Source of the DNA: Chloroflexota bacterium
Lineage (GTDB): Bacteria; Chloroflexota; UBA11872; VXNJ01
DNA length: 64,000 nucleotides
Assembly (NCBI GenBank): GCA_965207915.1
Contig: OZ242304.1
Coordinates: forward strand, 1,389,581-1,453,580
Direction: 5' to 3'
In this document: positions 7,283-58,120 of the stretch, in pieces
Layout: every line of letters begins with the position of its first letter
How positions within the stretch are numbered: the stretch's first letter is position 1
Position numbers and translations under genes: made by a program
Notes under the pieces: generated by a model
Seen by the model: the letters and a program-made list of their open reading frames with translations, nothing else
What the model was told of the DNA's origin: nothing
Databases searched by the model: none

Positions 7283-7322
7283 TGCGCATGGCGCAACGGG
7301 CAGTACGGCAACTTCTGGCAGA

Positions 7323-10036: not shown

Positions 10037-10042
10037 CCGGGC

Positions 10043-19303: not shown

Positions 19304-19468
19304 ATGTCTGGTTCTGCCAGCCGTGGTCCGGGTATTGCCGCCTACGCGGCGACCATGGCCGCCTTCTTCCTGATCCTGTTTGCCGTCCACGGCGCGTTGG
19401 GCGACGCCCTGCCGGCCGCCCTGCAGGATCTGGTGGACTCGCTGCCGGTGCCGCTGCCGGGCATCTAG
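19304..19468 (+). CDS. Possible small membrane protein (54 aa)
   Basis: Single hydrophobic helix (MAAFFLILFAVHGALG) in the divergent moaC/clp intergenic region. No RBS or homology support. Confidence 0.2.
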   Translation: MSGSASRGPGIAAYAATMAAFFLILFAVHGALGDALPAALQDLVDSLPVPLPGI

Positions 19469-19589
19469 GCCGGCCCCGATGGCGACCGCCGCCCCGAGTC
19501 CCTGGTTGCTGCGATCGCGCTCCCCGCGCGGATCCTCCCCCCGCCGGCGCGGCGGTTCGCAGGGCCGCCGAAGTCGATCCCCGCTGGCC

Positions 19590-25496: not shown

Positions 25497-27458
25497 ATGG
25501 GTAAGGACTTGGCCGATCCGCAGATAGCACCCTACGGTTCCTGGGAGTCGCCAATCGACCCGGCGATGCTGACCGAGGGCGCCTTGCGTTTCGATGAAAT
25601 CGATGTCGATGGCGACGACCTGTACTGGGTCGAATCGCGGCCCGATGAGCAGGGTCGCTACGCGGCGATGCGCTACACCGGGAGCGGCGAGTTGGCGGAG
25701 GTCTCCCCGCCCCAGCACAGCGCCCGCACCCTGGTCCACGAATACGGCGGCGGCTCGTTCGCCGTCTCCAACGGCGTGAGCTACTACTCGAACTTTGCCG
25801 ACCAGCGCCTCTACCGTCGGCCCGTGGACGGCTCGGAAGAGGCGATTCCGCTGACCCCCGAGGGCCCGCTGCGCTATGCCGACGCCAGCGTCGACGATCG
25901 CCGCGACCGGCTGATCTGCGTCGTGGAGGACCACCGCCGGGAGGGGCTCGAGGCCGAGAACTACCTGGCCGCGGTGACAACCGACGGGGCTGAGGCGGAA
26001 CCTACCAAGCTGCACGCCGGCTTCGACTTCTATTCATCGCCGCGCCTGAGCCCCGACGGCCGCCTGCTGGCCTGGACCTGCTGGAACCATCCGAACATGC
26101 CCTGGGACGCGACCGAGCTCTGGCTGGCCGAAATCGCCGCTGACGGCGGGCTGCTCGGGTCGCGCCGGATCGCCGGCGACGCCGGGGGCGAGGTCTCCGT
26201 CATCGAGCCGCAGTGGGGCCCGGACGGGACTCTGTTTTTCGTCTCCGACCACTCCGGCTGGTGGAATATCCAGCGCTGGGACGGCGACGGGTTCGCGCCC
26301 GTAAATTGCCTGCCGGCCGAGTTCGGGCAGCCGCAGTGGGAATTCTCGATGTCCACCTACGCGGTACTGGACGAGCGCCGCCTGGCCACCCAGTACGCCA
26401 ACGCGGACGGGCACCGGCTCGGAGTGCTGGACGTCGAATCGGGCGAGTTGAGCGAGATCAAGACTCCGTTTAACGCGTTCGGACATTTCACCGCCGCCTG
26501 CCGGGGCCGGATCGTCTTAGCCGCCGCCGGTCCCGCCGTCGGGACGGCGATCGTCGCCATCGACCCGCGCAACGGGGAGGTCGAGACGCTCCGCGCCTCG
26601 TCGGGCCCAGACCTCGACCCTTCCTTTGTTTCCGAGGCCGAGGCGATCACATTCCCCACCGCAGGAGGCCAGGCCGCGCACGCCTTCTACTACCCGCCGA
26701 ACAATCCGAGGTTCGCGGCGCCTGCCGGCGAGCTGCCGCCGTTGCTCACTTTCATCCACGGCGGCCCGACCGGCGCGACCGGCGCCGGCTTCAGCCTCGC
26801 CGTCCAGTTCTGGACCACGCGCGGTTTCGCGGTGGTCGACGTCAATTACCGCGGTTCGACCGGTTTCGGCACTGCCTACCGTCGCCTGCTGAACGGCAAC
26901 TGGGGGGTCTTCGACCGCGAAGACTGCGAAGCGGCCGCCAGACACCTGGTCGACCGCGGTTGTGTCGACGGTAAGCGGCTGGCCATTCGCGGCGGTTCGG
27001 CGGGCGGCTATACGACCCTGTGCGCGCTGACCTTCGGCGAAGTGTTCACGGCCGGCGCCTCCTACTTCGGCGTCTCGGACGTGGCGGCCCTGGCGCAGGA
27101 CACGCACAAGTTCGAGTCGCGCTACCTCGACTCGCTGATCGGGCCCTACCCCGAGCGGGCGGATCTCTATCGGCGGCGCTCGCCGATCAACGCGGTCGAC
27201 CGGCTGTCCTGCCCGGTCGTCTTCCTGCAGGGCCTTGAAGACAAGATCGTGCCCCCCGACCAGGCCGAGCGGATGGTGGAGGAACTGCGCCGCAAGGGTC
27301 TGCCGGTCGCCTACCTGCCGTTCGCCGGCGAGCAGCACGGGTTCCGGCAGGCGGCCAACATCCAGCGCGCTGCCGAGGCGGAACTTTCTTTTTACGGCCG
27401 GATCTTCGGGTTCGCGCCGGCCGGCGACATCGAGCCGGTCGAGATCGCGAACCTCTAG
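25497..27458 (+). CDS. S9 family serine peptidase (prolyl oligopeptidase/acylaminoacyl-peptidase type)
   Basis: N-terminal beta-propeller-like region and a C-terminal alpha/beta hydrolase with the nucleophile motif GGSAGGY and catalytic His in GEQHGF. Confidence 0.8.
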   Translation: MGKDLADPQIAPYGSWESPIDPAMLTEGALRFDEIDVDGDDLYWVESRPDEQGRYAAMRYTGSGELAEVSPPQHSARTLVHEYGGGSFAVSNGVSYYSNFADQRLYRRPVDGSEEAIPLTPEGPLRYADASVDDRRDRLICVVEDHRREGLEAENYLAAVTTDGAEAEPTKLHAGFDFYSSPRLSPDGRLLAWTCWNHPNMPWDATELWLAEIAADGGLLGSRRIAGDAGGEVSVIEPQWGPDGTLFFVSDHSGWWNIQRWDGDGFAPVNCLPAEFGQPQWEFSMSTYAVLDERRLATQYANADGHRLGVLDVESGELSEIKTPFNAFGHFTAACRGRIVLAAAGPAVGTAIVAIDPRNGEVETLRASSGPDLDPSFVSEAEAITFPTAGGQAAHAFYYPPNNPRFAAPAGELPPLLTFIHGGPTGATGAGFSLAVQFWTTRGFAVVDVNYRGSTGFGTAYRRLLNGNWGVFDREDCEAAARHLVDRGCVDGKRLAIRGGSAGGYTTLCALTFGEVFTAGASYFGVSDVAALAQDTHKFESRYLDSLIGPYPERADLYRRRSPINAVDRLSCPVVFLQGLEDKIVPPDQAERMVEELRRKGLPVAYLPFAGEQHGFRQAANIQRAAEAELSFYGRIFGFAPAGDIEPVEIANL

Positions 27459-27607
27459 TTGCCTCCTGCCCTCAAGATCTCGGTGTCCGGTTCGCGTGCC
27501 GCCGCGGCGTCGGCCCCGTGAAACCGCCCCTGCTCCCGGCCGAAAGCGCGCTTCCCGGGACCGACCGGAACCCCGGCCGGAGCGCTTCGGAACCCGCCCT
27601 GCGCCCC

Positions 27608-29116
27608 ATGGGGATCGAGACCGAGTACGGAATGATCTGCCTCGGCTTCGAGGGGCCGGTGGACTTTGCGTTTGAGGCCTCTACGCTGGTGCGGGCGGCC
27701 GAAATCGAACCGGTGTTCCGGGGCTGGGACTATTCGCACGAGGACGGCCGGCTGGATCTCTTCGGCCAACGCCATCGCCTGGCCCGCGATCCGGGCGATC
27801 TGGCCGACAACCGGCGCCGCAGCGCCGGGCTGTCGCGGCAGGAGCTCATCGCCGACACGGTCCTGCCGAATGGCGCCCGCTACTACAACGATCACAACCA
27901 CCCCGAGTACTGCACCGACGTGACCCGCTCGGTCTTCGAGCTGGTCCGCCAGGACGCCGCCGGCGAGGAGCTGTTGCTCTCCTGCCAGAGAGTCCGCAAC
28001 GCCGCCGGCCTGGAGGGCCAGGTACTGGTAGTCAAAAACAACACCGACTACCACGGTCGCTCCTATGGCACGCACGAGAACTACCTGGTCGACCGCCGGC
28101 TCGACCTGCGGTTCCTGATCGGCCAGCTGGTCCCGTTCCTGGTCTCGCGGATCGCCCTGACCGGCGCCGGCAAGTTCGGCAGCGAAGGGCAGCACGCCGA
28201 CCGGTCGGTCGGGCTGCAGATATCGCAGCGGGCCGATTTCTTCGCCCGCGTCAGCGGCATCAACACCACCACCGACCGCCCGATCTTCAACACCCGCGAC
28301 GAACCGCACAGCCGGCCCGACCGCTACCGCCGCCTGCACGTGATCTGCGGAGACGCCAACCGCTCGCACTACCAGACGGCGCTCAAGGCGGGCCTGACGG
28401 CGCTAGTGCTGGATCGGATCGAGGCCGGCCACGACTTCGGGGTCGCGCTCAACGACCCGGTCCGGGCGATGCGCGCCTTCTCGCGCGATCCGGGCCTTGA
28501 GGCCGTGGTCGAGACTTCGCGCGGGCGCCTGGCGTTGCTGGACGTATTGGAAATCTACCTGGACGCGGTGACCGAGTCGGCGCCGGGATCGGGTGAACGC
28601 GCCTGGATCATCGGCCAGAGTCGCGAACTGCTCGACCAGCTGCGCAGCGATCCCTCGGCGGCCGCCGACCGGGTCGACTGGTGCGCCAAAGCCGGGCTGG
28701 TCGCCGCGCTCGAGGACGGCGGGGAACCCCTTACCGGTTCCGAGCTGCAGCGCCTGGATCTGGCCTACCATTACCTCGATCCGCGCTACTCGACGCACCT
28801 CCAGCTGGTCGGCCAGGGCCGGATGCGCTCCCTGGTGGCGCCGGAGCAGGCGGGCGCGGCGCTGCGCCGCGCGCCAAGTGACACCCGGGCCCGCCTGCGC
28901 GGCCTGCTCGTTGCCCGATTCGGCGGACTGATCGAGGCGATCGAATGGGACTCGGTGCAACTGCGCCTCGGCGACCGGCGGCTGCGGATCGATCTGGGCG
29001 AGGTCCATTCAGGCGATATCGACGAACTCTCGGCCGCGGCCGAGCGGGCGGCCGACGCCGCGGCCTTGGAGCGCGCGCTGGCCCGCTCCGGACTGGTCGC
29101 GTTCGGGGAACGATAA
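27608..29116 (+). CDS. Pup ligase/deamidase family protein (PafA-like by N-terminal motif GIETEYG)
   Basis: MGIETEYG N-terminus and the carboxylate-amine ligase fold typical of PafA/Dop. Assigning it as PafA rather than Dop is tentative. Confidence 0.75.
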   Translation: MGIETEYGMICLGFEGPVDFAFEASTLVRAAEIEPVFRGWDYSHEDGRLDLFGQRHRLARDPGDLADNRRRSAGLSRQELIADTVLPNGARYYNDHNHPEYCTDVTRSVFELVRQDAAGEELLLSCQRVRNAAGLEGQVLVVKNNTDYHGRSYGTHENYLVDRRLDLRFLIGQLVPFLVSRIALTGAGKFGSEGQHADRSVGLQISQRADFFARVSGINTTTDRPIFNTRDEPHSRPDRYRRLHVICGDANRSHYQTALKAGLTALVLDRIEAGHDFGVALNDPVRAMRAFSRDPGLEAVVETSRGRLALLDVLEIYLDAVTESAPGSGERAWIIGQSRELLDQLRSDPSAAADRVDWCAKAGLVAALEDGGEPLTGSELQRLDLAYHYLDPRYSTHLQLVGQGRMRSLVAPEQAGAALRRAPSDTRARLRGLLVARFGGLIEAIEWDSVQLRLGDRRLRIDLGEVHSGDIDELSAAAERAADAAALERALARSGLVAFGER

Positions 29117-29146
29117 TCGCGGCACCTTGGTGATAGCCGGGTCGAT

Positions 29147-29359
29147 TTGAGAGGCAGGTTGCAGGTGCGTTCAGATCAAGTCGACGCCGGTCCGGACCGA
29201 ATCTGCCTGGAGACCGACGCACCGGCCAAACCGGACACTGAGACCGAGACCGATCCGGCCGAGGCGCCGGACGAGGGCAAGGAAGAGGAGCTCGGCGAGC
29301 GGGTACGGCGGATCATCCGCGAAATCCCCGATCCGACGCCGCAACCGGGCGGGCAGTAG
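29147..29359 (+). CDS. Pup/UBact-like small protein modifier (ends in GGQ)
   Basis: About 65-70 aa, acidic and disordered (DTETETDPAEAPDEGKEEELGERVRR), terminating in GGQ. It sits between two Pup-ligase-family genes, 7 nt upstream of the next. Non-ATG start: TTG at 29147 or GTG at 29165. Confidence 0.5.
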   Translation: MRGRLQVRSDQVDAGPDRICLETDAPAKPDTETETDPAEAPDEGKEEELGERVRRIIREIPDPTPQPGGQ

Positions 29360-29365
29360 AAGGCC

Positions 29366-30916
29366 ATGCAGGACGCGCTGTTCGGGACCGAAGTCGAGTT
29401 CGGCGTAACCGGCGCGGTCGACGCGCCGCTGGCGGCGGCGATGGTCAAGACCGAGATCTTCGACGGCTACCGCTACGGGGTGGTCGATCCGGCGCCCCGC
29501 GAGTGGGGCGAGACCCCCGCCAACGGCGGTTTTCTGTTCAACGGCGGTCGCCTGCTGATCGACTCCGGGCACCTCGAATACGCCACTCCCGAATGCCGCA
29601 CCCTGGCCTCGCTGGTGGCCCAGGAAATGGCCGTCGAGCAGATTCTGGGCGAGACGGTCGGGCGATTGGGCAAGGACGAGAGCATCTACTTCGTCAAGAG
29701 CAACACCGACTACTGTGGCAACACCTTCGGCTACCACGAGAGCTATTCGATGCGCCGCCGCCCCGACGACGACCTGGTCATCGCCGGGCTCATGCCGTTC
29801 CTGGTCACCCGCCAGATCTTCGCCGGGGCCGGGATGGTCTTCTTCGGCGGCCGCAACGAAGTGGCCCGGTACTTCATTTCGCAGCGGGCCCAGTTCGCCG
29901 ACGTGGGGGTTTCGCGGCGGGTCCGCTACGGCGGCCGCCCGATCATCAACCTGCGCGACGAGCCACTGGGGACCAGGGCCCGCCTGCACGTGATCATCGG
30001 CGACGCCAACCGTTCCGAATACGCCACCGCGCTCAAGATTGGCACGGCCGCGCTGGTAACCCAGCTCCTTGACGGCGGCTGGACCCAGCCGCTGACGCTC
30101 AGTACTCCGGTCCGCGATCTGCGCCAGATAGCGGCCAACACCGAGGGCGACTGGACGGTCCAGGACGAGCGCTACGGTTCGGTTTCCGCGGTGGAGGTGC
30201 AGCGCCTTTACCTGCACGAGGCCACGCGGCGCTTCGCCGGCCGCGACGCCGACACCGACTGGACGCTGGAGAACTGGGCCGCGGTGCTCGACCAGCTGGA
30301 AAGCGACCCCGAAAAGCTGAACGGCAAGCTGGACTGGGTCACCAAGCGCGGCGTGCTGCGCGAGGTCGCCGGCGAGAGCGAATCGGGCTGGAGCGATCGG
30401 GACCTGCTCAAGGTCGATCAGGCCTATCACATAGTGGGATCCGAGCAGAGCGTGTTCGCCGCGCTGCGCGAGCGCTCCGAGATGGGTTTTCTGCTGCCGG
30501 CGCCGGTGGCCCGGCGGGCGATCGCCTCCCCGCCCACCGACACCCGCGCGTTCGCCCGGGCCCAGGTCCTGCGGGCCCTGGCCGAGGCCGGCGCGGCCGA
30601 TCACGTGAACTGGCGGCGGCTGCGCAACGGACTGTCCGACTACGCACTGTGGGAGGGCCGCCTGTACCGGGTCTATTCCTACATTGACGGCTGGGAGGAG
30701 ATCGAGGCCTCCGGAGCCTGGGACGTGGTGCCCTACGTGCTGGACTGGGAATCAATCGCGGTCAACGGCGCGGTGCTGCAGATCAGCGATCCGTTTGAAC
30801 GCTATGCCGAGGATTCGGCCGCGTTCGCCGGGCAGATCGGCCAACTGCTCGAAGAACCCCCCTACGACGAGGCCGAATACGAGGAAGACGATCTCGATCC
30901 GGGGGAGGGCCTTTGA
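29366..30916 (+). CDS. Pup ligase/deamidase family protein (Dop-like by N-terminal motif GTEVEFG)
   Basis: The GTEVEFG N-terminus resembles the Dop GTEVEYG motif. Same fold as the 27608 gene and a paralog of it. Confidence 0.75.
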   Translation: MQDALFGTEVEFGVTGAVDAPLAAAMVKTEIFDGYRYGVVDPAPREWGETPANGGFLFNGGRLLIDSGHLEYATPECRTLASLVAQEMAVEQILGETVGRLGKDESIYFVKSNTDYCGNTFGYHESYSMRRRPDDDLVIAGLMPFLVTRQIFAGAGMVFFGGRNEVARYFISQRAQFADVGVSRRVRYGGRPIINLRDEPLGTRARLHVIIGDANRSEYATALKIGTAALVTQLLDGGWTQPLTLSTPVRDLRQIAANTEGDWTVQDERYGSVSAVEVQRLYLHEATRRFAGRDADTDWTLENWAAVLDQLESDPEKLNGKLDWVTKRGVLREVAGESESGWSDRDLLKVDQAYHIVGSEQSVFAALRERSEMGFLLPAPVARRAIASPPTDTRAFARAQVLRALAEAGAADHVNWRRLRNGLSDYALWEGRLYRVYSYIDGWEEIEASGAWDVVPYVLDWESIAVNGAVLQISDPFERYAEDSAAFAGQIGQLLEEPPYDEAEYEEDDLDPGEGL

Positions 30917-31938
30917 ACCCGGCCCTGGCGGCGATCTGGGAATGGGCCGGCTACGCGGTGCGCTCCGCCGGCTGGAAGATCCGGACCGGCCGGATCGAGG
31001 AGGCGCTGGCCGGGATCGAACTGTTCGAGCGGCTGTCCCCGGAATTTCGCCGCCAACTGGCCCGGCGCAGCCGGCTGCTGATCGCCGAGCCCGGGACGGT
31101 CATCACCGAACCCGGCATGCGCGACCGCAATCTCTACGTGCTGGCGGCCGGCTCGGTGCGACTCTCGGTGCCGAGCCATCCCGACGAGGGTCAGCGGCGC
31201 GGCTGGCTGGTCGGCGAGGGCGCGGCGTTCGGCAACTTCGAAAGGGTCCTGGGGCTGCCGGAAATGATCCACGCCTCGGCCGAGGCCCACAGCGAAGTCC
31301 TGGTCCTGGATGTCGGCTCGCTGCTCGGCGGGGAGGTCCAGCGCTCCGATCTGACCGCGGCCCTGAACGAGTCGTACCTGCGGACCGTGTTCGCCGCCTA
31401 CCTGCGCAACATCACCTACCTGGACCAACTCGAGGACGAGCAGATCGAATCGCTGGCGGCACGCTTCAGCTGGCGGCGCCACCCGGCCGGGGCAATCCTC
31501 TACCGTCAGGGCGACTACGGCACCGACTTCTACTTTCTGCGGCGCGGCCAGGCGCTGTTGCAGGTCTCGCACTTCGACCGCGGCCGCGGCCGCCGCCGGA
31601 CCCGTTTCCACGAACTCTCCGAAGGGGACCACTTCGGCGAACTGGCCCTGCTCGGGCAGACCGCGCGTCCGGCTTCTGTGCGGGCGATCACGGCGCTCTC
31701 TACGCTGGTGATCCGGCGCGACGCGCTGCTGGATTTTTATGCCGAATACCCGCAGACCCAGAGCGGCATAGAGCAGGGGATGCTCGACTACGTCTCCTCG
31801 CGAGCGTGGCTCGAAAAACACGACTTGCCGTCCCCACCGCGGCCGGATGTGAACTGGCTGGAACCGATGCACGACGACTCCAGGGTCGAATGGCTCAAGC
31901 GCAGCAGCGGCGATTCGGTCGCCGGGCTCGGCGCGTAA
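30913..31938 (+). CDS. Tandem cyclic-nucleotide-binding (cNMP/Crp-like effector) domain protein
   Basis: Two cNMP-binding domains (LFERLSPEF...GEGAAFG and FGELALLGQTARPASVRA). No output domain. The start overlaps the upstream stop by 4 nt. Confidence 0.7.
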   Translation: MNPALAAIWEWAGYAVRSAGWKIRTGRIEEALAGIELFERLSPEFRRQLARRSRLLIAEPGTVITEPGMRDRNLYVLAAGSVRLSVPSHPDEGQRRGWLVGEGAAFGNFERVLGLPEMIHASAEAHSEVLVLDVGSLLGGEVQRSDLTAALNESYLRTVFAAYLRNITYLDQLEDEQIESLAARFSWRRHPAGAILYRQGDYGTDFYFLRRGQALLQVSHFDRGRGRRRTRFHELSEGDHFGELALLGQTARPASVRAITALSTLVIRRDALLDFYAEYPQTQSGIEQGMLDYVSSRAWLEKHDLPSPPRPDVNWLEPMHDDSRVEWLKRSSGDSVAGLGA

Positions 31939-32606: not shown

Positions 32607-33683
32607 ATGGAATATCGCACGTTCGGCGACTCGGAGCTGGAAGTCTCGGTGATCGGGTTCGGCGGCTGGCCGATGGGCGGGTCAAATTACGGCCTGGTCG
32701 ACGACGGCGAAAGCAAGGCCGCGGTTCGGCGTGCGTTCGACCTGGGAATCACCTGTTTCGACAACGCCGCCGTCTACGGCGTGGGCCATTCCGAGCGCGT
32801 GATGGGGGCGGCGCTCAAACCGATACGCGACCAGATCGTGCTGGTGACCAAGTGCGGGCTGGCCTGGAACGACGAGGTCAAGCGCGTCGAGCGCAACGGC
32901 ACCCGGGAAAGCGTCATCGCATCCTGCGAGCGGAGCCTCAAGGATCTTGGGACCGACTACATCGACCTGCTGCTGGTCCACTGGCCCGACGTTTACACCC
33001 CCTTCGAGGAGACGATGCGGGCGCTCGAAGAACTCCGGCAGGCCGGCAAGATCCGCTACGCCGGGGTCTCCAACTTCATGCCCGAGATGCTGGAGGAGTG
33101 CCGGCGGCACCTGGGGATCGTGGCCAATCAGATGGGATATTCGCTGCTGGAACGCCGCATCGAGCGCGACGTGATGCCATGGTGTGAAGAAAACGGGATC
33201 GGGATCATGGGTTATGGCTCGCTGGCCCACGGCCTGCTCTCGGGGGCGATGGACGCCGGCCACCAGTTCGAGACCGGCGACTGGCGGGCTACCGGTCACG
33301 CATTCGGACTGCCGATCTTTGACCGCGAAAAGCACTTCCCGGCCAACGTGGAAGTCCAGAACCGGCTCCGCGCAATTGCCGTACGCGAAGGCCACACCCT
33401 GCCCGAACTTGCGACGGCCTGGGTTCTTGCCCAGGAGGTCGTGACCACCGCGCTGGTCGGATTCCGGACCCCGGCCGAAGTCGACGAGGCTGCCCGCGCG
33501 GCCGACTGGAAGCTCACGGCCGAGCTCTCCGCCGAGGTGACCGCGATCTCCGACGAGGCCTACCAGCGCAACGTCGCCGACGAGCTGTTGACCCCGCCGA
33601 TCGGAAACTGGAATCCGTGGAACCGGCAACCGCAGCGGTTCGGCACCGCCGGACTCTCGCCCTCCGATCGGACAGACGACTAG
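32607..33683 (+). CDS. Aldo/keto reductase (copy 1 of 3)
   Basis: MEYRTFGDSELEVSVIGFGGWPMGG and the AKR catalytic tetrad context (LGITCFDNAAVYG...HWPD). Confidence 0.85.
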   Translation: MEYRTFGDSELEVSVIGFGGWPMGGSNYGLVDDGESKAAVRRAFDLGITCFDNAAVYGVGHSERVMGAALKPIRDQIVLVTKCGLAWNDEVKRVERNGTRESVIASCERSLKDLGTDYIDLLLVHWPDVYTPFEETMRALEELRQAGKIRYAGVSNFMPEMLEECRRHLGIVANQMGYSLLERRIERDVMPWCEENGIGIMGYGSLAHGLLSGAMDAGHQFETGDWRATGHAFGLPIFDREKHFPANVEVQNRLRAIAVREGHTLPELATAWVLAQEVVTTALVGFRTPAEVDEAARAADWKLTAELSAEVTAISDEAYQRNVADELLTPPIGNWNPWNRQPQRFGTAGLSPSDRTDD

Positions 33684-33864
33684 GTTGCAGCCGCTCGCGC
33701 GGCGCCTTGAGAATCCCGGCTGTCCTTTTCCGGGCTCGTGAACGACCGGCCGCCGGCGGGTAGCTTTGAGGGACGAAGAGGGGCGTTGAATCCGTCAATA
33801 ATGGGCGGTCAATGCGCCCCGCGGACGCTCACCCTGCGCGGCGCCCGGGAATGGATGGACGGCG

Positions 33865-34902
33865 ATGGAATACCGCAAGTTTGGTGATTCGGAACTCGAG
33901 GTCTCGGTTGTCGGGTTCGGCGGCTGGCCGATGGGTGGAAATTACGGCGAGTCCGACGACAGCGAAGGCCAGGCTGCGGTGCGGCGCGCGCATGAATTGG
34001 GGGTCACCTGCTTCGACAACGCCGCCGTTTACGGGCAGGGGCACTCCGAGCGGGTGATGGGCGCGGCGCTCAAACCGATACGCGACCAGATCGTGCTGGT
34101 GACCAAGTGCGGACTTGACCGCGACCCCGAGGGCGGCGGAGTGATCCGCAACGGCACCCGTGCCCACGTGCTGGAGTCCTGCGAGCGGAGCCTGAAGAAC
34201 CTGGACACCGACTACATCGACCTGATGCTGGTCCACTGGCCGGACATCTTCACCCCATTCGAGGAGACCATGCGGGCGCTGGAAGAGCTCCACCGGACCG
34301 GCAAGATTCGCTACGCCGGGGTGTCGAACTTCCTGCCGGACATGCTGGAGGAATGCAAGAAGCACTTCGGCATCGTCGCCAACCAGATGGGCTACTCGAT
34401 GCTGGACCGGCGCATCGAACGCGACGTGATGCCCTGGTGCGGGCAGAACGGGATCGGGATCATGAGCTACGGCTCGCTGGCCCACGGCCTGCTGTCGGGG
34501 GCCATGACCGCCGAATACGAATTCAAGCCGAACGACTGGCGCTACTCGGGCAACGCCTTCGGACTGCCGTTTTTTGATCGCGCGAAGCACTTCCCGGCCA
34601 ACATCCAGACCCAGGACCGGCTGCGGGCGATCGCCGAGCGCGAGGGCCACACCCTCCCCGATCTGGCGCTCTCCTGGGTGGTCTCGCACGAGACGGTAAC
34701 CACCGCGCTGGTCGGATTCACCACTCCGGGACAGGTCGAGGATGCGGCCCGCGCGGCCGAGTGGAAACTCTCGCCCGAGCTCTACGCCGAAGTGACCGCG
34801 ATATCCGACGAGGCCTACCAGCGCAACGTCTCGGGCGAGATGATGGCCCCGCCGGTGGGAACCAAGAACGCCTGGAATCCCAACCCGACCAAGTTCGCCT
34901 AA
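33865..34902 (+). CDS. Aldo/keto reductase (copy 2 of 3)
   Basis: Paralog of copy 1 (MEYRKFGDSELEVSVVGFGGWPMGG). Confidence 0.85.
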   Translation: MEYRKFGDSELEVSVVGFGGWPMGGNYGESDDSEGQAAVRRAHELGVTCFDNAAVYGQGHSERVMGAALKPIRDQIVLVTKCGLDRDPEGGGVIRNGTRAHVLESCERSLKNLDTDYIDLMLVHWPDIFTPFEETMRALEELHRTGKIRYAGVSNFLPDMLEECKKHFGIVANQMGYSMLDRRIERDVMPWCGQNGIGIMSYGSLAHGLLSGAMTAEYEFKPNDWRYSGNAFGLPFFDRAKHFPANIQTQDRLRAIAEREGHTLPDLALSWVVSHETVTTALVGFTTPGQVEDAARAAEWKLSPELYAEVTAISDEAYQRNVSGEMMAPPVGTKNAWNPNPTKFA

Positions 34903-35033
34903 CCGTGGTCGCCGGGTGAGGCGTTGAACCGCCCGGGCCGGACCGCGCGCGGTCCGGCATTGCCAGAATTGGCGGCGCCAGAACCGCGCCGGCGCCGTGT
35001 CGGCCGCGTAGCCAGGGAATAGCCAAAAACGCC

Positions 35034-36110
35034 ATGGAATACCGCAAATTCGGAGATTCGGACCTCGAGGTCTCAGTAGTTGGTTTCGGCGGCTGGCCGA
35101 TGGGTGGTACCCAGTACGGCGAAGTCGACGACAGCGAGGGCCAGGACGCGGTTCGGCGGGCCTTTGACCTGGGGGTCACGTGTTTCGACAACGCCGCCGG
35201 CTACGGCCTGGGGCATTCCGAGCGGGTTATGGGCGCGGCGCTCAAGCCGATCCGCGACCAGATCGTGCTGGTTACCAAGTGCGGAATCGCCTGGAACGAC
35301 GCCGAAAAGCGGATGGAGCGCAACGGCACCCGCGCCCACGTCCTGGAGTCCTGCGAGCGAAGCCTGAAGAACCTGCAGACCGACTACATCGACCTGCTGC
35401 TGATCCACTGGCCCGACGTCGATACGCCGTTCGAGGAGACGATGCGCGCCCTGGAAGAGCTGCAGCAGGCCGGCAAGATCCGCTACGCCGGAGTCTCCAA
35501 CTTCATGCCCGAGATGCTTACCGAGTGCAAGAAGCACCTGGGGATAGTCGCCAACCAGATGGGCTACTCGATGCTGGAGCGCCGCATCGAGCGCGACGTG
35601 ATGCCCTGGTGCGAGCAGAACGGGGTGGGGATCATGAGCTACGGATCGCTGGCCCACGGCTTGCTCTCCGGCGCGATGCCGGCCGACTACCAGTTCGAAA
35701 CCTGGGACTGGCGCGATTCCGGCCATGCCTTCGGCATGCCGTTCTTCGACCGCCAGAAACACTTCCCGGCCAATGTCGAAACCCAGCACCGCCTGCAGGC
35801 GATCGCCGAACGCGAGGGGCACACCCTGCCCGATCTGGCCCTAGCCTGGGTGCTCTCGCACGAGGTCGTTTCCACCGCGCTGGTCGGGTTCCGGACCCCG
35901 GCCGAGGTCAACGACGCCGCGCGCGCGGCCGAGTGGAAACTCTCGCCCGAGCTCTACGCCGAAGTGACCGCGATATCCGACGAGGCCTACCAGCGCAACG
36001 TCGCCGACGAGATGATGGTTTCCCCCAAGGGCGGATGGAATCCCTGGAACCGCGAACCGCAGCGCTTTGCCGGCGGCGGCCGCGATCTGCCCGAAGACGA
36101 GGCCGAATAA
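35034..36110 (+). CDS. Aldo/keto reductase (copy 3 of 3)
   Basis: Paralog of copies 1 and 2. Shares a perfectly identical ~78-bp tract with copy 2. Confidence 0.85.
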   Translation: MEYRKFGDSDLEVSVVGFGGWPMGGTQYGEVDDSEGQDAVRRAFDLGVTCFDNAAGYGLGHSERVMGAALKPIRDQIVLVTKCGIAWNDAEKRMERNGTRAHVLESCERSLKNLQTDYIDLLLIHWPDVDTPFEETMRALEELQQAGKIRYAGVSNFMPEMLTECKKHLGIVANQMGYSMLERRIERDVMPWCEQNGVGIMSYGSLAHGLLSGAMPADYQFETWDWRDSGHAFGMPFFDRQKHFPANVETQHRLQAIAEREGHTLPDLALAWVLSHEVVSTALVGFRTPAEVNDAARAAEWKLSPELYAEVTAISDEAYQRNVADEMMVSPKGGWNPWNREPQRFAGGGRDLPEDEAE

Positions 36111-36126
36111 GGCCGGCCGGGGACCG

Positions 36127-36501
36127 TTGCCGGAAGAGCGTCTTTACTCGCTAAAAGAGGCTCGCGCACTGCTGCCGGCCACCGTTCGCCGGCTGGAGCA
36201 GATCGCGGAGCTCCGCGGGCAGATGCGGGCCTGGGGGAGCGCCGCCGAAGGGATTGCGCCGGCCGAGGGCGACGCACCCGGACTCGACGAACTGCTCGCG
36301 TCGATAAACGCACGGTTGCGCGAGCTCTCCGACGACGGGATCCTGGTTCGCGACCTGCGCAGCGGGATCATCGATTTCCCGGGCCGCGACGCCGACGGTC
36401 CGCTGTGCTGGTGCTTCCGGCTGGGCGAACCGGACATCCTCTTTTGGCACCGTCCCGACGAGGGTTTCGCGGGCCGCAAACCGGTGCAGGATTTCCAATG
36501 A
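36127..36501 (+). CDS. DUF2203-like conserved hypothetical protein
   Basis: TTG start giving MPEERLYSLKEARALLP, with the C-terminal CWCFRLGEPDILFWHRPDEGFAGRKP motif that I recall as characteristic of DUF2203. The track ORF start at 36067 overlaps the upstream AKR. Confidence 0.45.
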   Translation: MPEERLYSLKEARALLPATVRRLEQIAELRGQMRAWGSAAEGIAPAEGDAPGLDELLASINARLRELSDDGILVRDLRSGIIDFPGRDADGPLCWCFRLGEPDILFWHRPDEGFAGRKPVQDFQ

Positions 36502-36691
36502 ACGAGCGAAATAGCGCGGCAATCGAATAAAGCAACCCAGCTGAAATTGAAACGTTTTGTCAAATTGGCATTGCTATTCCATAAACGGTGATTTCACTAC
36601 TGTCCGAAACGGGAGAAGAATCGGAACCGGGAATTGAATACCGGACCATTTCTTGATTGGACTTGGAGCACAGTTAGTTTTTCCCGAATTT

Positions 36692-36744
36692 GCTTCCCCA
36701 ATTGGCAATCATTCGACGAAAGCTCGACACTCAATTGGGGAAGC
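36692..36744. repeat. Perfect 13-bp inverted repeat (GCTTCCCCAATTG ... CAATTGGGGAAGC) with 27-nt spacer
   Basis: Read directly from the AT-rich leader of the RNR gene. Could be an RNA hairpin or a protein-binding palindrome. Confidence 0.7.
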
Positions 36745-36998
36745 GAGTCGGACGGTTTGCAGTCCACGTGATCGATGGGCGTGGCGTATTCCGAATTTGG
36801 CCAATTGGGCGCCAAGATTTTTGGAACTGCGAAATTGACAATTCGTAGCAGGAAATTGCAAGCGCACAGTCGCTCACACGGTGGCGCATTTCCCAAGTGA
36901 ATCGTTTGATTCTTGGCTCGGAAATAAGCAGAACTGCGATAATTTCACTTTGGGCGTACGCAATAATTAGGCGAAATTGCCCCGTTTGGACCACCATG

Positions 36999-37014
36999 AC
37001 ACTAGATGTAGTGC
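36999..37014. promoter_or_regulatory. NrdR-box-like palindrome ACACTAGATGTAGTGC
   Basis: 13/16 match to the consensus NrdR box acaCwAtATaTwGtgt. Lies about 105 nt upstream of the RNR start codon. A second, weak half-match sits at 37068-37083. Confidence 0.4.
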
Positions 37015-37119
37015 CTCCGAATTGCCCAGCGCGATCGGTGCGACAACGATCAAAATTCGAACAATTGACAAAGATGTGGTGTTAGGTTTAAACGCTTGTA
37101 ATTAGTTAAATTTCGCCCG

Positions 37120-40011
37120 TTGTTCACTAGTACAAAAATGCCTAACGAGTGGTCGGGGCAGGCTAGCCAATCACCATCGATTGATTTCACCGCGATGCTC
37201 GTTCAAAAGCGCGACGGTCGGGTCGTCTCTTTTGACATCAAACGCATTCGTGACGCAATGGCTAAAGCCTTTCGCGCCGATTTGGGAATGGCAATAGACC
37301 AGGAGTTGTCGGACGCGATTTCGGGAGAAGTCGACGCAATAACTCACGCGGTATTGCAAAAGATCTCAGCCAATGCCAGGACAGATGAGGGTGTTGAGAT
37401 TGAAGCGATACAAAATGCCGTCGAAGAGGAATTAATGAGGAGAGGCCACTATTCGGTGGCCAGATCCTATATCTTGTACCGGGCGGAACGGGCAAGATTG
37501 CGCGCGATTCGTCGGATCGTCAAACCGGCGGATCAACTCAAAGATCCGATATTAGTAACCAAATCGGACAAGACTCGTCAGCCTCTGGAAGTCGCTCGCA
37601 TTCGCGCGGAGTTGTTCGAGGTCTTTAGAGGACTCGATGGACATTGTTCCATTGATGACATTGAAGACGCAGTTTTTCTTTCGTTACACGACGGGATTTC
37701 CTCCGGAGACATCCAACGTGCATTGATTTTGGTTGCTCGTCAATGCATGGAAGCTGAGCCCGCGTACGATCGCGTAGCCACGCGTTTACTTTTGAGGCTC
37801 ATTTATCGAGAAGCGTTGGGCGCCGCTCCGACCATTACTGAACTTGACGAACCATATAGGGAAGGATTTGCTCCCTATTTGCGCGCTGGTGTCGAGGCAG
37901 GAAGAATCGATTCCAAGCTGTTGGACTTCGATCTCGAGCGCCTGAAATTGGCGTTGCGCGTTGACCGCGACGACAACTTCAGGATCCTCGGCCTGCAGAC
38001 CCTGTACGACCGGTACCTATTGCACGTCGACGGGCGCCGCATCGAGACTCCGCAATATTTCTGGATGCGGGTGGCGATGGGGTTAGCCCAAAACGAGGAT
38101 GACCGTGAGGCTCGCGCGATCGAGTTCTATGAAACACTCTCACGGTGCCTTTTCGTTTCGGCAACTCCGACGCTCTTTAATTCCGGCACGCCGCATCCCC
38201 AGCTCTCTTCTTGTTACCTCTCCACAGTTAGCGACGACCTGGAGGGCATATTTAAGTGCATCTCCGACAATGCCGCGCTTTCAAAGTGGGCCGGGGGCCT
38301 GGGCAACGACTGGACCCCGATCCGCGCCACCGGATCCCACATCAAAGGCACCAACGGCGAGAGCCAGGGCGTAATCCCGTTCCTCAAGATCGTCAACGAC
38401 ACCGCGGTAGCGGTGAACCAGGGCGGCAAGCGCAAGGGCGCTGTCTGCGCCTATCTGGAGACCTGGCATCTGGACATCGAAAGCTTCGTCGAACTCCGCA
38501 AAAACACCGGCGACGAGCGCCGCCGCACCCACGACATGAACACCGCCAACTGGGTCCCCGACCTGTTCATGCAGCGGGTGGCCCAGAACGGACGCTGGAC
38601 GCTGTTCTCGCCCGACGAGGTCCCGGACCTGCACGATCTTTACGGTAAGGCTTTTGCTGAGCGTTACGAGCACTACGAGCGCCAAGCTAATCGCGGACAA
38701 ATCCGCCGCTACAAGGAAGTCGATGCGCGGGATCTCTGGCGCCAGATGCTCTCGATGCTCTTTGAGACCGGGCATCCCTGGATCACGTTCAAAGACCCGT
38801 CAAACATTCGTTCACCGCAGGACCACGTCGGAGTCGTGCACAGCTCCAACTTGTGCACCGAGATCCTGTTGAATACCTCCTCCACCGAGACCGCAGTCTG
38901 CAACCTGGGTTCGCTAAACCTGCCCGCCCACACGACCCCTGAGGGAATCGACGAGAAACTGCTGGCCAGCACGGTTGCTACCGCAATGCGGATGCTGGAC
39001 AACGTAATCGACATTAACTACTATCCGACCCCGGAAGCCCGGCGCTCCAACACTGCCCACAGACCGGTCGGACTGGGCGTCATGGGCTTCCAGGACGCGC
39101 TATATATCCAGCGCATTCCCTACGCTTCGCAAGAAGCAGTCGAATTCGCCGACCTTTCCATGGAATTGGTTTCATACAACGCGATCCTCTCTTCATCGGA
39201 ACTTGCTTCAGAGCGCGGCCCATACCCTAGCTATCAGGGATCGAAGTGGGACCGCGGCCTGCTCCCGATCGACACCATCGATCTGCTGGAACTGGAGCGC
39301 GGTGAGCCGGTCGAGATGAACCGCGAAAAAACCCTGGACTGGGGCTTGGTGCGTTCGCGGATTAACCGCGACGGTATGCGCAACTCCAACGTCCTGGCCA
39401 TTGCCCCGACCGCGACGATTTCCAACATCGCCGGGGTCTCGCAGTCGATCGAGCCGATCTATCGCAACCTCTACGCCAAATCAAACCTCTCCGGGGACTT
39501 CACGATCCTTAACCCGTATCTGGTTCGTGACTTGCGGCGACTGGACCTATGGGACCAGCGCATGATCGAGGATCTGAAGTACTACGACGGTGTGCTTGCC
39601 GAAATCTCCCGGATCCCTGAGGAGCTGCGGCGTCTCTACCTGGCAGCGACCCAGATTGAACCGGCCTGGCTGATCGAATGCGCGGCCCGTCGCCAGAAGT
39701 GGATCGACATGGGTCAGTCGCTGAACCTCTACATCGCCACACCGTCCGGGAAAGCGGTCGACGAGATGTACTTCCTGGCCTGGCGGCGGGGCCTGAAGAC
39801 CACCTACTACCTGCGCTCGTTCGCCCCTACCCAGATCGAAAAGACGTCGATCGACATCAACGCCCGCGCCATCCAGCCGCGCTGGATGAAATCCGAGTCG
39901 GCCTCGTCCCGGATCGCGGTTAAGCGCGCCGAAGCCCCAGCCGAAGTCCGCTCCACCGTCAACGGGCTGGTGTGCGACCCGTTCGACGAGGAATGCGAGG
40001 CCTGCCAGTAG
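37120..40011 (+). CDS. nrdA: Ribonucleoside-diphosphate reductase large (alpha) subunit with two N-terminal ATP-cone domains
   Basis: 963 aa. ATP-cone ([20 protein letters not shown]) plus a second degenerate cone, the catalytic core PTLFNSGTP...SSCYL, a tyrosine dyad KTTYYLRS near the C-terminus (class-I-like) and C-terminal Cys residues ([12 protein letters not shown]). No nrdB is adjacent, so class II (NrdJ) cannot be fully excluded. Confidence 0.8.

Positions 40012-56570: not shown

Positions 56571-58120
<1,550 letters not shown>

What the first reader, a model, noticed from the sequence alone, without database searches (positions are those of the whole stretch)
27608..31938. Proteasome-less pafA-pup-dop locus with inverted gene order and a translationally coupled tandem cNMP-binding protein
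Two Pup-ligase-family paralogs flank a small acidic ORF that ends in GGQ. The first has an N-terminal GIETEYG (PafA-like) and the second GTEVEFG (Dop-like). No prcB/prcA or Mpa/ARC genes lie between or beside them, and the order (PafA-like first, Dop-like last) is inverted relative to the actinobacterial dop-pup-prcBA-pafA. The Dop-like gene overlaps by 4 nt a protein made only of two cyclic-nucleotide-binding domains. This suggests a cNMP-responsive partner for a pupylation system without a dedicated proteasome.
Basis: partly seen in the sequence, partly recalled or inferred. Interest (0 to 1): 0.7.

Follow-up and report, generated by a model that had tools for sequence, protein, structure and literature searches.

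The report
Chloroflexota Pup-like tagging cassette, no proteasome
This is a Chloroflexota version of the bacterial "pupylation" protein-tagging cassette (remover enzyme, small tag, attacher enzyme, in the normal order) that uses a previously unnamed tag family, has no proteasome genes nearby, and in this one lineage is fused in an operon with a cyclic-nucleotide sensor protein.

Summary
Two intact Pup-ligase-family genes (27608-29116 and 29366-30916) flank a 64-aa acidic ORF ending PGGQ (29165-29359). A tandem cNMP-binding gene (30913-31938) overlaps the second enzyme by 4 nt.

The first enzyme is Dop-like: it has the Dop-loop and DHxHPEY, and scores 256 bits against Dop versus 169 against PafA. 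The second lacks the loop and groups with PafA in a tree. The order is therefore the canonical dop-tag-pafA with prcBA missing, not inverted.

The window comes from an uncultured Chloroflexota genome. The three-gene cassette is present in all 78 non-redundant copies examined (the window plus 77 Chloroflexota loci). None has Mpa, PrcA or PrcB within 10 kb.

The tag has an invariant C-terminus, RI[IV]RE[IVM]P[DGN]PTPQPGG[E/Q], under strong purifying selection. It matches neither the Pup nor the UBact models, and every database copy is named "hypothetical protein".

The cNMP protein resembles a PKA regulatory subunit. Its family has only 10 database clusters, and every member examined lies directly after the PafA-like gene. 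Sister clades carry a CBS protein or unrelated genes at that position.

A whole-genome check for a proteasome was not possible. Verdict: a new variant of a known kind, of moderately high interest.

The parts
27608..29116 (+). Dop-like depupylase/deamidase homologue, 502 aa. An alternative GTG start at 27518 is possible; gene callers in close relatives also give 502 aa.
   Evidence: PF03136 at 407 bits. TIGR03688 Dop 341 bits against TIGR03686 PafA 270, both below the equivalog cutoffs. Full-length alignment to Dop 4B0R/5LRT at 256 bits against PafA at 169. Reciprocal best hit to the Dop of a canonical Latescibacterota mpa-dop-UBact-prcB-prcA-pafA locus. Tree placement. Catalytic motifs GIETEYG, NDHNHPEY, NNTDYHGRSYGTHENY, RPIFNTRDEPH and RLHVICGDAN are intact.
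27719..27853 (+). Dop-loop segment of the first enzyme, about residues 38-82 (RGWDYSHEDGRLDLFGQRHRLARDPGDLADN...).
   Evidence: Aligns with the Dop-loop of A. cellulolyticus Dop (RWDFEEENPLRDARGFE...). The segment is absent from every PafA-like paralogue. The Dop-loop is defined in PMC7947786.
29165..29359 (+). Pup-like small tag gene: 64 aa, pI 4.2, proline-rich, C-terminus ...GERVRRIIREIPDPTPQPGGQ. It lies 48 nt after the dop-like stop and 6 nt before the pafA-like start.
   Evidence: A homologous ORF sits between the two enzymes in all 78 non-redundant copies, 49 ending GGE and 29 GGQ. Purifying selection: 20,932 synonymous against 3,174 nonsynonymous codon differences. Called as a 64-aa gene in relatives.
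29309..29356 (+). Invariant C-terminal motif of the tag, RIIREIPDPTPQPGGQ.
   Evidence: Alignment A2 and per-codon statistics.
29366..30916 (+). PafA-like ligase homologue, 516 aa, with an acidic C-terminal tail.
   Evidence: PF03136 at 333 bits. No Dop-loop, IDSGHLEYATPEC, and a G-V-S element in the alpha-loop. Reciprocal best hit to Latescibacterota PafA. Groups with PafA at 84-88% bootstrap. NCBI names its relatives 'PafA2 family protein'.
30913..31938 (+). Tandem cyclic-nucleotide-binding protein, 341 aa, PKA-R-like. Its TTG start overlaps the pafA-like stop.
   Evidence: PF00027 at 83 bits with two stretches. AlphaFold model pLDDT 71, pTM 0.67. Foldseek top hits are PKA/PKG regulatory tandem CNB domains at E 1e-18. 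The family has only 10 clusters, and every member examined lies directly after the PafA-like gene.
31633..31686 (+). Phosphate-binding cassette of CNB domain B, FGELALLGQTARPASVRA, residues 241-258.
   Evidence: Conserved across the family. The Glu and Arg sit at the spacing I recall for the PKA RI-alpha cassette GELALIYGTPRAATV (my own knowledge). Domain A (FGNFERVLGLPEMIHA) lacks both residues.

Best explanation
The locus is a Chloroflexota form of the pupylation cassette in the canonical order: Dop-like enzyme, small tag, PafA-like enzyme.

**Proposed mechanism**
1. The 64-aa acidic tag is made with a C-terminal Gln.
2. The Dop-like enzyme deamidates the Gln to Glu.
3. The PafA-like enzyme uses ATP to phosphorylate the gamma-carboxylate of that Glu and joins it to lysine side chains of target proteins.
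4. The Dop-like enzyme also removes the tag again.

**Shown here**
- The gene content and order.
- Which paralogue resembles which enzyme.
- Intact catalytic motifs in both enzymes.
- An extremely conserved GG[E/Q] tag.
- The absence of neighbouring mpa and prcBA in 78 non-redundant copies.

**Inferred**
- The chemistry, by homology with Pup, PafA and Dop.
- Because no Mpa/ARC or 20S genes accompany the cassette, tagging most likely acts without a proteasome, either as a reversible regulatory mark or as a signal read by some other factor.
- In the window's own lineage, a dedicated PKA-regulatory-subunit-like protein with one intact cNMP site is co-translated with the ligase. I propose as a hypothesis that it binds the ligase or its products and makes tagging respond to cAMP or cGMP.
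For: **Organism and conservation**
- The window matches a Chloroflexota MAG at 94% identity.
- The triad of enzyme 1, small ORF and enzyme 2 is found in all 78 non-redundant copies.

**Enzyme identity**
-, using the discriminating positions listed in PMC7947786.
- A canonical Latescibacterota locus (mpa-dop-UBact-prcB-prcA-pafA) gives reciprocal best hits: its Dop to enzyme 1 and its PafA to enzyme 2.

**Tag**
- Invariant RI[IV]RE[IVM]P[DGN]PTPQPGG[EQ], with variation almost entirely at third codon positions.
- The GGE/GGQ alternation matches the pattern known for Pup (PMC8223512).

**No proteasome nearby**
- No Mpa, PrcA or PrcB in the window or within +-10 kb in relatives.

**cNMP protein**
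- Tandem CNB fold with an intact B-site cassette.
- The family is confined to this context.

**Precedent**
- Proteasome-free pupylation is documented in C. glutamicum (PMC8223512; PMC12288473).
Against: - No biochemical data exist for any member of this system.
- Both enzymes score below the NCBIfam equivalog cutoffs for Dop and PafA.
- The PafA-like enzyme lacks several PafA-specific residues: the Val65 insertion, Ser50/Ser51, and His188/Trp190/Glu191 of the alpha-loop. By raw score it is closer to Dop than to C. glutamicum PafA.
- The tag shows no significant similarity to Pup or UBact.
- Proteasome and Mpa genes elsewhere in the roughly 2.4-Mb genome could not be excluded.
- The cNMP link is phylogenetically shallow, probably a single origin. 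Most Chloroflexota cassettes lack it, so it cannot be part of the core mechanism.
Confidence: 0.7

Rival explanations
1. One reading: the locus runs pafA-pup-dop, inverted relative to Actinobacteria, with the Dop-like gene coupled to the cNMP protein.
For: The first enzyme begins GIETEYG as M. tuberculosis PafA does (my own knowledge). The second begins GTEVEFG, as M. tuberculosis Dop begins GTEVEYG (9CKU alignment).
Against: - A. cellulolyticus Dop also begins MGIETEYG.
- The Dop-loop, the DHxHPEY motif and the higher Dop scores all belong to the first enzyme.
- The second enzyme lacks the loop and groups with PafA.
- Reciprocal best hits with a canonical Latescibacterota locus agree.
Confidence: 0.04
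2. The core cassette is as described, but the cNMP-binding gene is only an operon passenger. It would be a lineage-specific gene that arose or landed after pafA, with no direct functional tie to tagging.
For: - It occurs only in the window's own clade, where PafA-like identity is at least 73%.
- Sister clades carry a CBS protein, a transporter, an unannotated 318-aa protein with no Pfam match, CysRS, a CoA-transferase and other genes at that position.
- Synteny over the whole 20 kb is conserved in that clade, so adjacency alone carries little weight.
Against: - The family has only 10 clusters among 5.8 billion proteins. All nine relatives examined (the tenth cluster is the window's own sequence) sit directly after the PafA-like gene, six of them with the same 4-nt overlap, as in the window.
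- This persists while other neighbours changed: the S9 peptidase moved, and a VanZ-like gene was inserted in L090.
- It evolves faster than the ligase yet keeps its B-site cassette.
Confidence: 0.4
3. The system is not proteasome-free. Mpa/ARC and 20S genes lie elsewhere in the genome, and the tag still delivers proteins for proteasomal degradation.
For: - Only 64 kb of a roughly 2.4-Mb genome, and +-10 kb in relatives, could be inspected.
- The enzymes are closest to those of UBact-type loci that do include mpa and prcBA.
Against: - In every described system the unfoldase, and the 20S genes where the organism has them, sit in the same locus as the tagging genes (PMC8223512; L088).
- None of the 78 non-redundant copies has them within 10 kb.
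- The survey in PMC7947786 does not list Chloroflexi among phyla carrying Dop or PafA homologues.
- I know of no described Chloroflexota proteasome (my own knowledge).
Confidence: 0.15
4. It is not a protein tag at all. The small conserved peptide would be the substrate of two glutamine-synthetase-like enzymes that attach or remove a small amine at its C-terminal Glu/Gln, making a modified peptide product rather than a conjugation system.
For: - The tag has no detectable homology to Pup or UBact.
- The ligase-like enzyme diverges in the alpha-loop, which in PafA contacts protein targets (PMC7947786).
Against: - The combination of a Dop-like enzyme, a GG[E/Q]-ending intrinsically simple acidic protein and a PafA-like enzyme in this order is exactly the pupylation signature.
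- Both enzymes sit firmly inside PF03136 and group with bona fide Dop and PafA.
- The alternation of Q and E at the last residue matches Pup biology.
Confidence: 0.06

Closest known systems
Actinobacterial pupylation loci that lack the proteasome (Corynebacterium glutamicum, Micrococcus luteus: arc-dop-pup-pafA)
   Same: - Order dop, tag, pafA with no prcBA between.
- An acidic tag of about 64 aa ending GG[Q/E].
- A Dop enzyme with a Dop-loop and a PafA enzyme without one.
- A precedent for non-degradative tagging (PMC8223512; PMC12288473).
   Different: - A different phylum, Chloroflexota.
- No ARC/Mpa gene at the locus.
- The tag is not recognised by the Pup models: no hit at E<=10 in Pfam, NCBIfam or the PDB Pup chains, and hhalign probability 1% against M. 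tuberculosis Pup. The stretch before the terminal GGQ is a proline-rich segment (IPDPTPQP) where M. tuberculosis Pup has ENAEDFVRAYVQK.
- Both enzymes score below the Dop and PafA equivalog cutoffs.
- No pafBC downstream. In this lineage a tandem-CNB gene sits there instead.
UBact-proteasome loci of Gram-negative phyla, here Latescibacterota L087/L088: mpa-dop-UBact-prcB-prcA-pafA
   Same: - The enzymes are the closest relatives outside Chloroflexota at 36-38% identity, with reciprocal best hits.
- The PafA-like motif GNGGFLFN...D-x-GHLEYATPEC is shared.
   Different: - UBact is basic (pI 10.7) and ends RRYRQRTGE. The Chloroflexota tag is acidic (pI 4.2) and ends PTPQPGG[EQ].
- The UBact loci carry mpa, prcB and prcA. 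The Chloroflexota loci carry none.
PKA/PKG regulatory subunits (tandem CNB-A/CNB-B)
   Same: - Two consecutive cNMP-binding beta-barrels with no enzymatic or DNA-binding output domain.
- The best structural matches, at E 1e-18 over about 270 columns.
- The B-site cassette keeps the Glu and the Arg.
   Different: - Only about 19% sequence identity.
- No inhibitor or dimerisation region was recognised.
- The A-site is degenerate.
- The partner, if there is one, would be a Pup-type ligase or depupylase rather than a kinase.

Membership tests
Pup-ligase/deamidase family (Pfam PF03136) | Profile match above the gathering score, with GhExE, the catalytic Asp, and the NNTD...HENY, RPIxNxRDEP and RLHVIxGDAN motifs | tested here: met
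   407 and 333 bits against a cutoff of 25. The motifs are visible in the alignments.
Dop (NCBIfam TIGR03688 equivalog), first enzyme | Score at or above the curated equivalog cutoff of 492.3 bits | tested here: not met
   341.3 bits. It is still the best-scoring model and matches end to end (1-475 against 4-479 of 485).
Dop, first enzyme | Presence of the roughly 40-residue Dop-loop (PMC7947786) | tested here: met
   RGWDYSHEDGRLDLFGQ... aligns with Acel Dop RWDFEEENPLRDARGFE.... The loop is present in all PL1 sequences aligned and absent in all PL2 sequences aligned.
Dop, first enzyme | Dop-type residues beside the catalytic Asp (D-H95-A96-H, no insertion) and a Dop-type alpha-loop (F208, E210, V211, E212, G214, L215, E216) | tested here: inconclusive
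   N-D-H-N-H-P-E-Y keeps His95 and the Dop spacing. In the alpha-loop ADFFARVSGINTT, F208, G214 and L215 (as Ile) are kept but the acidic positions are not. Other Chloroflexota PL1 sequences have ADFFEEV.GINTT.
Dop, first enzyme | Deamidase and depupylase activity | not testable with these tools
   Requires biochemistry.
PafA (NCBIfam TIGR03686 equivalog), second enzyme | Score at or above the curated equivalog cutoff of 551.3 bits | tested here: not met
   246.2 bits for PafA (end to end, 5-420 against 3-428 of 457) against 249.3 for Dop (only from residue 55).
PafA, second enzyme | Absence of the Dop-loop | tested here: met
   A gap of about 45 columns, as in Latescibacterota PafA. Alignments to Dop start only after the loop.
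PafA, second enzyme | PafA-specific residues (S50, S51, F54, L63, V65 insertion, G66, S67, A72, T73, A74; alpha-loop H188, W190, E191, G192, S194, S195, A196, R199, S200; D439) | tested here: inconclusive
   Present: F54 (F56), G66, A72, T73, G192, S194, and Asn at the D439 position. Absent: S50/S51, the V65 insertion, A74 (Pro, as in Dop), H188 (Phe, as in Dop), W190, E191, S195, A196, R199 and S200. There is one extra residue.
PafA, second enzyme | Phylogenetic grouping with PafA rather than Dop | tested here: met
   NJ tree on 398 columns with 100 bootstraps: PL2 plus Latescibacterota PafA 88%, plus C. glutamicum PafA 84%. The method is simple and only one actinobacterial PafA was included.
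Pup (Pfam PF05639 / TIGR03687) | Sequence match to the Pup models or to solved Pup chains | tested here: not met
   No hit at E<=10 for 20 members in Pfam or NCBIfam, or for the profile against PDB. hhalign against M. tuberculosis Pup gives probability 1%, E 0.054.
Pup | A small protein of about 60-70 aa, acidic, with C-terminal Gly-Gly-Gln/Glu, encoded directly after dop | tested here: met
   64 aa, pI 4.2...PGGQ. 49 copies end GGE and 29 end GGQ.
Pup | Covalent attachment to lysines of target proteins | not testable with these tools
   Needs proteomics or an in vitro assay.
UBact | Basic small protein ending R-[TS]-G-[EQ] | tested here: not met
   The tag is acidic and ends PGG[EQ]. hhalign against the L088 UBact gives probability 0.25%.
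Pup-proteasome system locus | mpa/arc and prcB-prcA encoded with dop, pup and pafA | tested here: not met
   None in the 64-kb window or within +-10 kb in 77 related loci. The rest of the genome was not searchable.
cNMP-binding domain proteins (PF00027), tandem CNB of PKA-R type | Two CNB beta-barrels, and a phosphate-binding cassette with Glu and Arg | tested here: met
   PF00027 at 83 bits with two stretches. Foldseek E 1e-18 to PKA and PKG R-subunits. The B-site FGELALLGQTARPASV is intact and the A-site is degenerate. Ligand binding itself was not testable.

The most novel reading that the evidence does not exclude
Chloroflexota carry a third, so far unnamed family of prokaryotic ubiquitin-like tags, after Pup and UBact. 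Its signature is ...RIIREIPDPTPQPGG[E/Q]. Its own Dop-like and PafA-like enzymes write and erase it, and it works without Mpa or a proteasome. In one soil lineage, a dedicated PKA-regulatory-subunit-like receptor co-translated with the ligase places the ligase under cyclic-nucleotide control.
Probability: 0.3. Interest if true: 0.8.

Novelty: new variant of a known kind. Interest (0 to 1): 0.6.

Why it matters
- **Phylum range.** Pupylation is treated as an actinobacterial trait, with Nitrospirae and, via UBact, scattered Gram-negative phyla. The survey in PMC7947786 does not list Chloroflexi.
- **A distinct tag.** Here an abundant environmental phylum shows a conserved three-gene cassette whose tag is as distinct from Pup as UBact is, and which is annotated everywhere as "hypothetical protein".
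- **Tagging without unfoldase or protease genes nearby.** The cassette travels without any unfoldase or 20S genes. It offers a clean case for asking what Pup-type tagging does on its own, and whether conjugation chemistry came before proteasome coupling.
- **Mechanistic handle.** The invariant proline-rich C-terminus predicts a different way of docking into the enzyme groove than Pup's second helix.
- **Possible second-messenger control.** The cNMP-sensor fusion in the operon, with a CBS protein at the same place in the sister clade, suggests a testable link between nucleotide signalling and protein tagging.
- **Experimental access.** Thermoflexus hugenholtzii, a cultured species (my own knowledge), carries the cassette (L075, L083), so experiments are feasible.

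Tried and rejected
1. **Small ORF against Pfam and NCBIfam** (E<=0.01, then E<=10 for 20 members), and its profile against PDB. This gave only chance hits such as FtsA_C and an rRNA methyltransferase.
2. **hhalign of the tag profile against M. tuberculosis Pup and a Latescibacterota UBact.** Not significant. Only the short acidic helix 'DLxExxxR' lines up.
3. **Promoter and terminator consensus scan of 24.5-32.7 kb.** No more sites than in shuffled sequence, so uninformative.
4. **Rfam and tRNA scans of the window.** Only a tRNA-Lys at 15.7 kb, with no RNA element near the locus.
5. **Search for a conserved fourth gene.** I clustered all neighbouring ORFs in 79 loci. Nothing beyond the triad is shared by more than about 28 loci. 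Neighbours are housekeeping genes: ornithine cyclodeaminase, CysRS, CoA-transferase, UDG and a solute-binding protein.
6. **The nearby N-domain-less ClpA/C-like ATPase as a stand-in for Mpa.** It lies within 10 kb in only about a third of loci and is never adjacent, so I kept it only as a side note.
7. **Exact-sequence look-up of the window's own cNMP protein (P0241)** to find the source contig. Not on record.
8. **Literature searches** for pupylation or PafA together with Chloroflexi/Chloroflexota, UBact, and Thermoflexus with proteasome. No description of this system was found.

Full report
**Observation**

The window is GC-rich, about 67%. On the + strand it carries four tightly packed genes:
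- ORF 27608-29116, beginning MGIETEYG. An upstream GTG at 27518 is a possible alternative start.
- A small ORF whose most plausible start is GTG 29165 and which ends at 29359. It gives 64 aa, pI 4.2, and the C-terminus ...EELGERVRRIIREIPDPTPQPGGQ.
- ORF 29366-30916, beginning MQDALFGTEVEFG.
- ORF 30913-31938, whose TTG start overlaps the preceding TGA (cTTTGAa).

Both large proteins are full-length members of Pfam Pup_ligase, at 407 and 333 bits against a cutoff of 25. The last protein has two cNMP_binding stretches.

**Which enzyme is which**

That motif does not discriminate, because the crystallised Dop of Acidothermus cellulolyticus itself begins MGIETEYG. The features that do discriminate are listed in PMC7947786. 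They are a roughly 40-residue Dop-loop present only in Dop, the residues flanking the catalytic Asp, and the 'alpha-loop'.

The first enzyme is Dop-like:
- It aligns end to end with Dop, including the loop. RGWDYSHEDGRLDLFGQ lines up with RWDFEEENPLRDARGFE.
- It keeps D-H-x-H-P-E-Y.
- It scores Dop above PafA: 341 against 270 bits in NCBIfam, and 256 against 169 bits against PDB sequences.

The second enzyme is PafA-like:
- It lacks the loop completely.
- It has the PafA-type Phe54, Gly66 and Ala72-Thr73 equivalents, and a G-V-S element in the alpha-loop.
- It lacks other PafA signatures, and by raw score it is slightly nearer to Dop.

Two further tests settle the assignment:
- A Latescibacterota locus fetched in the same scan (L088) has the canonical mpa-dop-UBact-prcB-prcA-pafA layout, with Mpa confirmed by Pfam. 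Its Dop is the reciprocal best hit of enzyme 1, at 283 against 228 bits. Its PafA is the reciprocal best hit of enzyme 2, at 294 against 216 bits.
- In a neighbour-joining tree (398 columns, 100 bootstraps), the second enzymes group with Latescibacterota PafA (88%) and then with C. glutamicum PafA (84%). The first enzymes fall on the Dop side.

The order is thus dop-tag-pafA. This is the canonical order with prcBA missing, as in proteasome-lacking Actinobacteria (PMC8223512). It is not an inversion. Both enzymes retain all the catalytic motifs, so neither looks like a dead paralogue.

**Organism and conservation**

A scan of one genome per species returned 80 loci. The best are Chloroflexota MAGs: 94% identity to CAXXYJ010000066 and 89% to chromosome OZ244573.1. 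The 77 closest loci are all Chloroflexota, including Thermoflexus hugenholtzii.

In every locus that contains the region, the same triad is present. Across the 78 non-redundant copies (window included), the small ORF has an invariant C-terminus, RI[IV]RE[IVM]P[DGN]PTPQPGG[E/Q]. Of these, 49 end in GGE and 29 in GGQ. A semi-conserved E-T-E-A-P-x-K-P motif lies further upstream.

Over the last 16 codons, the summed entropy at codon positions 1, 2 and 3 is 2.37, 0.35 and 20.26 bits. There are 20,932 synonymous against 3,174 nonsynonymous pairwise codon differences. This is a real protein under very strong purifying selection.

**What the tag is, and is not**

The E/Q alternation at the last residue, the acidity, the size and the position between a Dop-like and a PafA-like gene are the hallmarks of Pup. 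By sequence, however, the family is not Pup:
- It gives no hit to any Pfam or NCBIfam model, or to solved Pup chains, even at E<=10.
- Profile comparison with M. tuberculosis Pup gives probability 1%. I checked that Pup sequence against PDB 7PX9.
- It is not UBact either. UBact in the same data set is basic (pI 10.7) and ends RRYRQRTGE.
- Only a short acidic helix, D-L-x-E-x-[IV]-x-R, lines up among the three.
- Where Pup has the stretch ENAEDFVRAYVQK before its terminal GGQ, the Chloroflexota tag has a rigid-looking proline-rich stretch, IPDPTPQP.

A profile search of 5.8 billion proteins found 159 clusters. Every named copy is called 'hypothetical protein', none has a Pfam domain, and almost all of the named ones are labelled Chloroflexota. 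A 2020 survey of Dop and PafA distribution lists Actinobacteria, Nitrospirae and several sporadic phyla but not Chloroflexi (PMC7947786). Further literature searches found no description.

**Proteasome**

No proteasome subunit or Mpa/ARC ATPase is among about 45 window ORFs scanned with Pfam. tblastn with Latescibacterota Mpa, PrcB and PrcA finds nothing in the window or within +-10 kb in any Chloroflexota locus, although it recovers the second Latescibacterota locus easily.

Clustering of all neighbouring ORFs shows that only the triad is conserved. The flanks are varied housekeeping genes. Within these limits the cassette is free of proteasome and Mpa genes.

**The cNMP protein**

- *Structure.* The 341-aa protein models as two CNB beta-barrels plus a disordered tail (pLDDT 71, pTM 0.67). 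Its best structural matches are the tandem CNB-A/B regulatory modules of PKA and PKG, at E about 1e-18 over about 270 columns.
- *Binding sites.* The second domain keeps a canonical phosphate-binding cassette, FGELALLGQTARPASV. Its Glu and Arg sit at the spacing I recall for PKA RI-alpha. The first domain has lost both residues.
- *Distribution.* The family is tiny, with 10 clusters at 55% identity or more. The next hits are generic cNMP proteins at E 1e-9.
- *Context.* Every member whose context I could see lies directly after the PafA-like gene: the window, L001, L003, L009, L010, L012, L089, L090 and L091. Most share the same 4-nt overlap. This holds even though other neighbours changed. 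The S9 peptidase is upstream only in the closest relatives, and L090 has a VanZ-like gene inserted between dop and the tag.
- *Sister clades.* The sister clade (PafA-like identity 54-60%) has a small CBS-domain protein at that position. More distant clades have unrelated genes.

The link is therefore exclusive but phylogenetically shallow. It is compatible with a dedicated cNMP-responsive subunit and also with a lineage-specific operon passenger. I rate these two readings as roughly equally likely.

**Mechanism proposed**

Shown:
- Gene content and order.
- Enzyme type.
- Intact active sites.
- A conserved GG[E/Q] tag.
- Absence of mpa and prcBA nearby.

Inferred from homology:
- The Dop-like enzyme deamidates the terminal Gln of this organism's tag.
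- The PafA-like enzyme activates the resulting gamma-carboxylate with ATP and ligates it to lysines.
- The Dop-like enzyme reverses the mark.

That the Dop-like gene is retained in the 49 genomes whose tag already ends in Glu argues that it also works as an eraser. Without Mpa or 20S, the mark probably acts non-degradatively or is read by another factor, as ARC reads it in C. glutamicum.

Hypothesis: in this lineage the PKA-R-like protein couples tagging to cAMP or cGMP.

**Verdict**

What is there is a new variant of a known kind, a Chloroflexota-wide Pup-type cassette with its own unannotated tag family. Interest is 0.6.

Noticed in passing
window 19380-21524 (+); the likely true start is near 19590 (MYGVDLTRR...): A double-ring Hsp100/Clp ATPase that lacks the usual N-domain and the ClpB middle domain but keeps a ClpP-docking IGF loop (GAGIGFAGSG). 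A homologue lies within 10 kb of the tagging cassette in two different arrangements: upstream on the same strand in the window's clade, and about 7.5 kb downstream on the opposite strand in the L028/L032/L035 clade. This could be leftover synteny, or a hint of an alternative unfoldase for tagged proteins.
   Followed up: partly
L005 11682-12173, L008 5967-6425, L016 6949-7476, L018 11632-12168, L019 11681-12181: In the sister clade, a small CBS-domain protein (another nucleotide-sensing module) occupies the slot after the PafA-like gene where the window has the cNMP protein. It is on the same strand, with gaps of 22-184 nt by my ORF calls (the gene caller puts the L008 start at 6000).
   Followed up: partly
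window 25497-27458 (+): An S9 (prolyl-oligopeptidase-type) serine peptidase with a beta-propeller N-terminus sits immediately upstream of the Dop-like gene in the closest relatives only (L009, L010, L089-L091; in L090 the gap is 1 nt). In the 89%-identity relative it lies 10 kb away on the other strand, and there a metallophosphoesterase overlaps the Dop-like start instead.
   Followed up: partly
L039 11598-12554 and the same position in about 15 other loci (L030, L033, L036, L037, L040, L042, L047, L048, L050, L055, L058, L081 and others): In another large Chloroflexota clade, a conserved 318-aa protein with no Pfam match follows the PafA-like gene by about 100 nt. An ornithine-cyclodeaminase-family gene precedes the Dop-like gene there.
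   Followed up: no
L090 2402-2956: One relative has a VanZ-like gene inserted between the Dop-like gene and the tag gene. The cassette tolerates interruption there while the PafA-cNMP overlap stays intact.
   Followed up: no
L002 about 9878-10043, compared with L001 9800-9994: Two assemblies of the same species differ by a frameshift near the C-terminus of the tag ORF. In L002 the PDPTPQPGGQ end is in another frame. This is probably a long-read indel error rather than biology.
   Followed up: no
window 36000-40000: GC content drops from about 68% to 54-60% around a class I-type ribonucleotide reductase large subunit with ATP-cone domains (37120-40011). No Rfam riboswitch reached the gathering score in the 600-nt leader.
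   Followed up: partly
window 32607-36110 (+): Three tandem aldo/keto-reductase paralogues (358, 345 and 358 aa) followed by a DUF2203 gene. The arrangement is conserved in the close relatives.
   Followed up: no
window 56571-57848 (+): An IS110-family transposase in a lower-GC stretch of the window (54-64 kb, GC 62-64%).
   Followed up: no
window 7254-10036 (+): Two long GC3-rich ORFs (356 and 655 aa, overlapping frames) with no Pfam or NCBIfam match lie directly upstream of an SbcD/SbcC-like pair (10037-13745).
   Followed up: no
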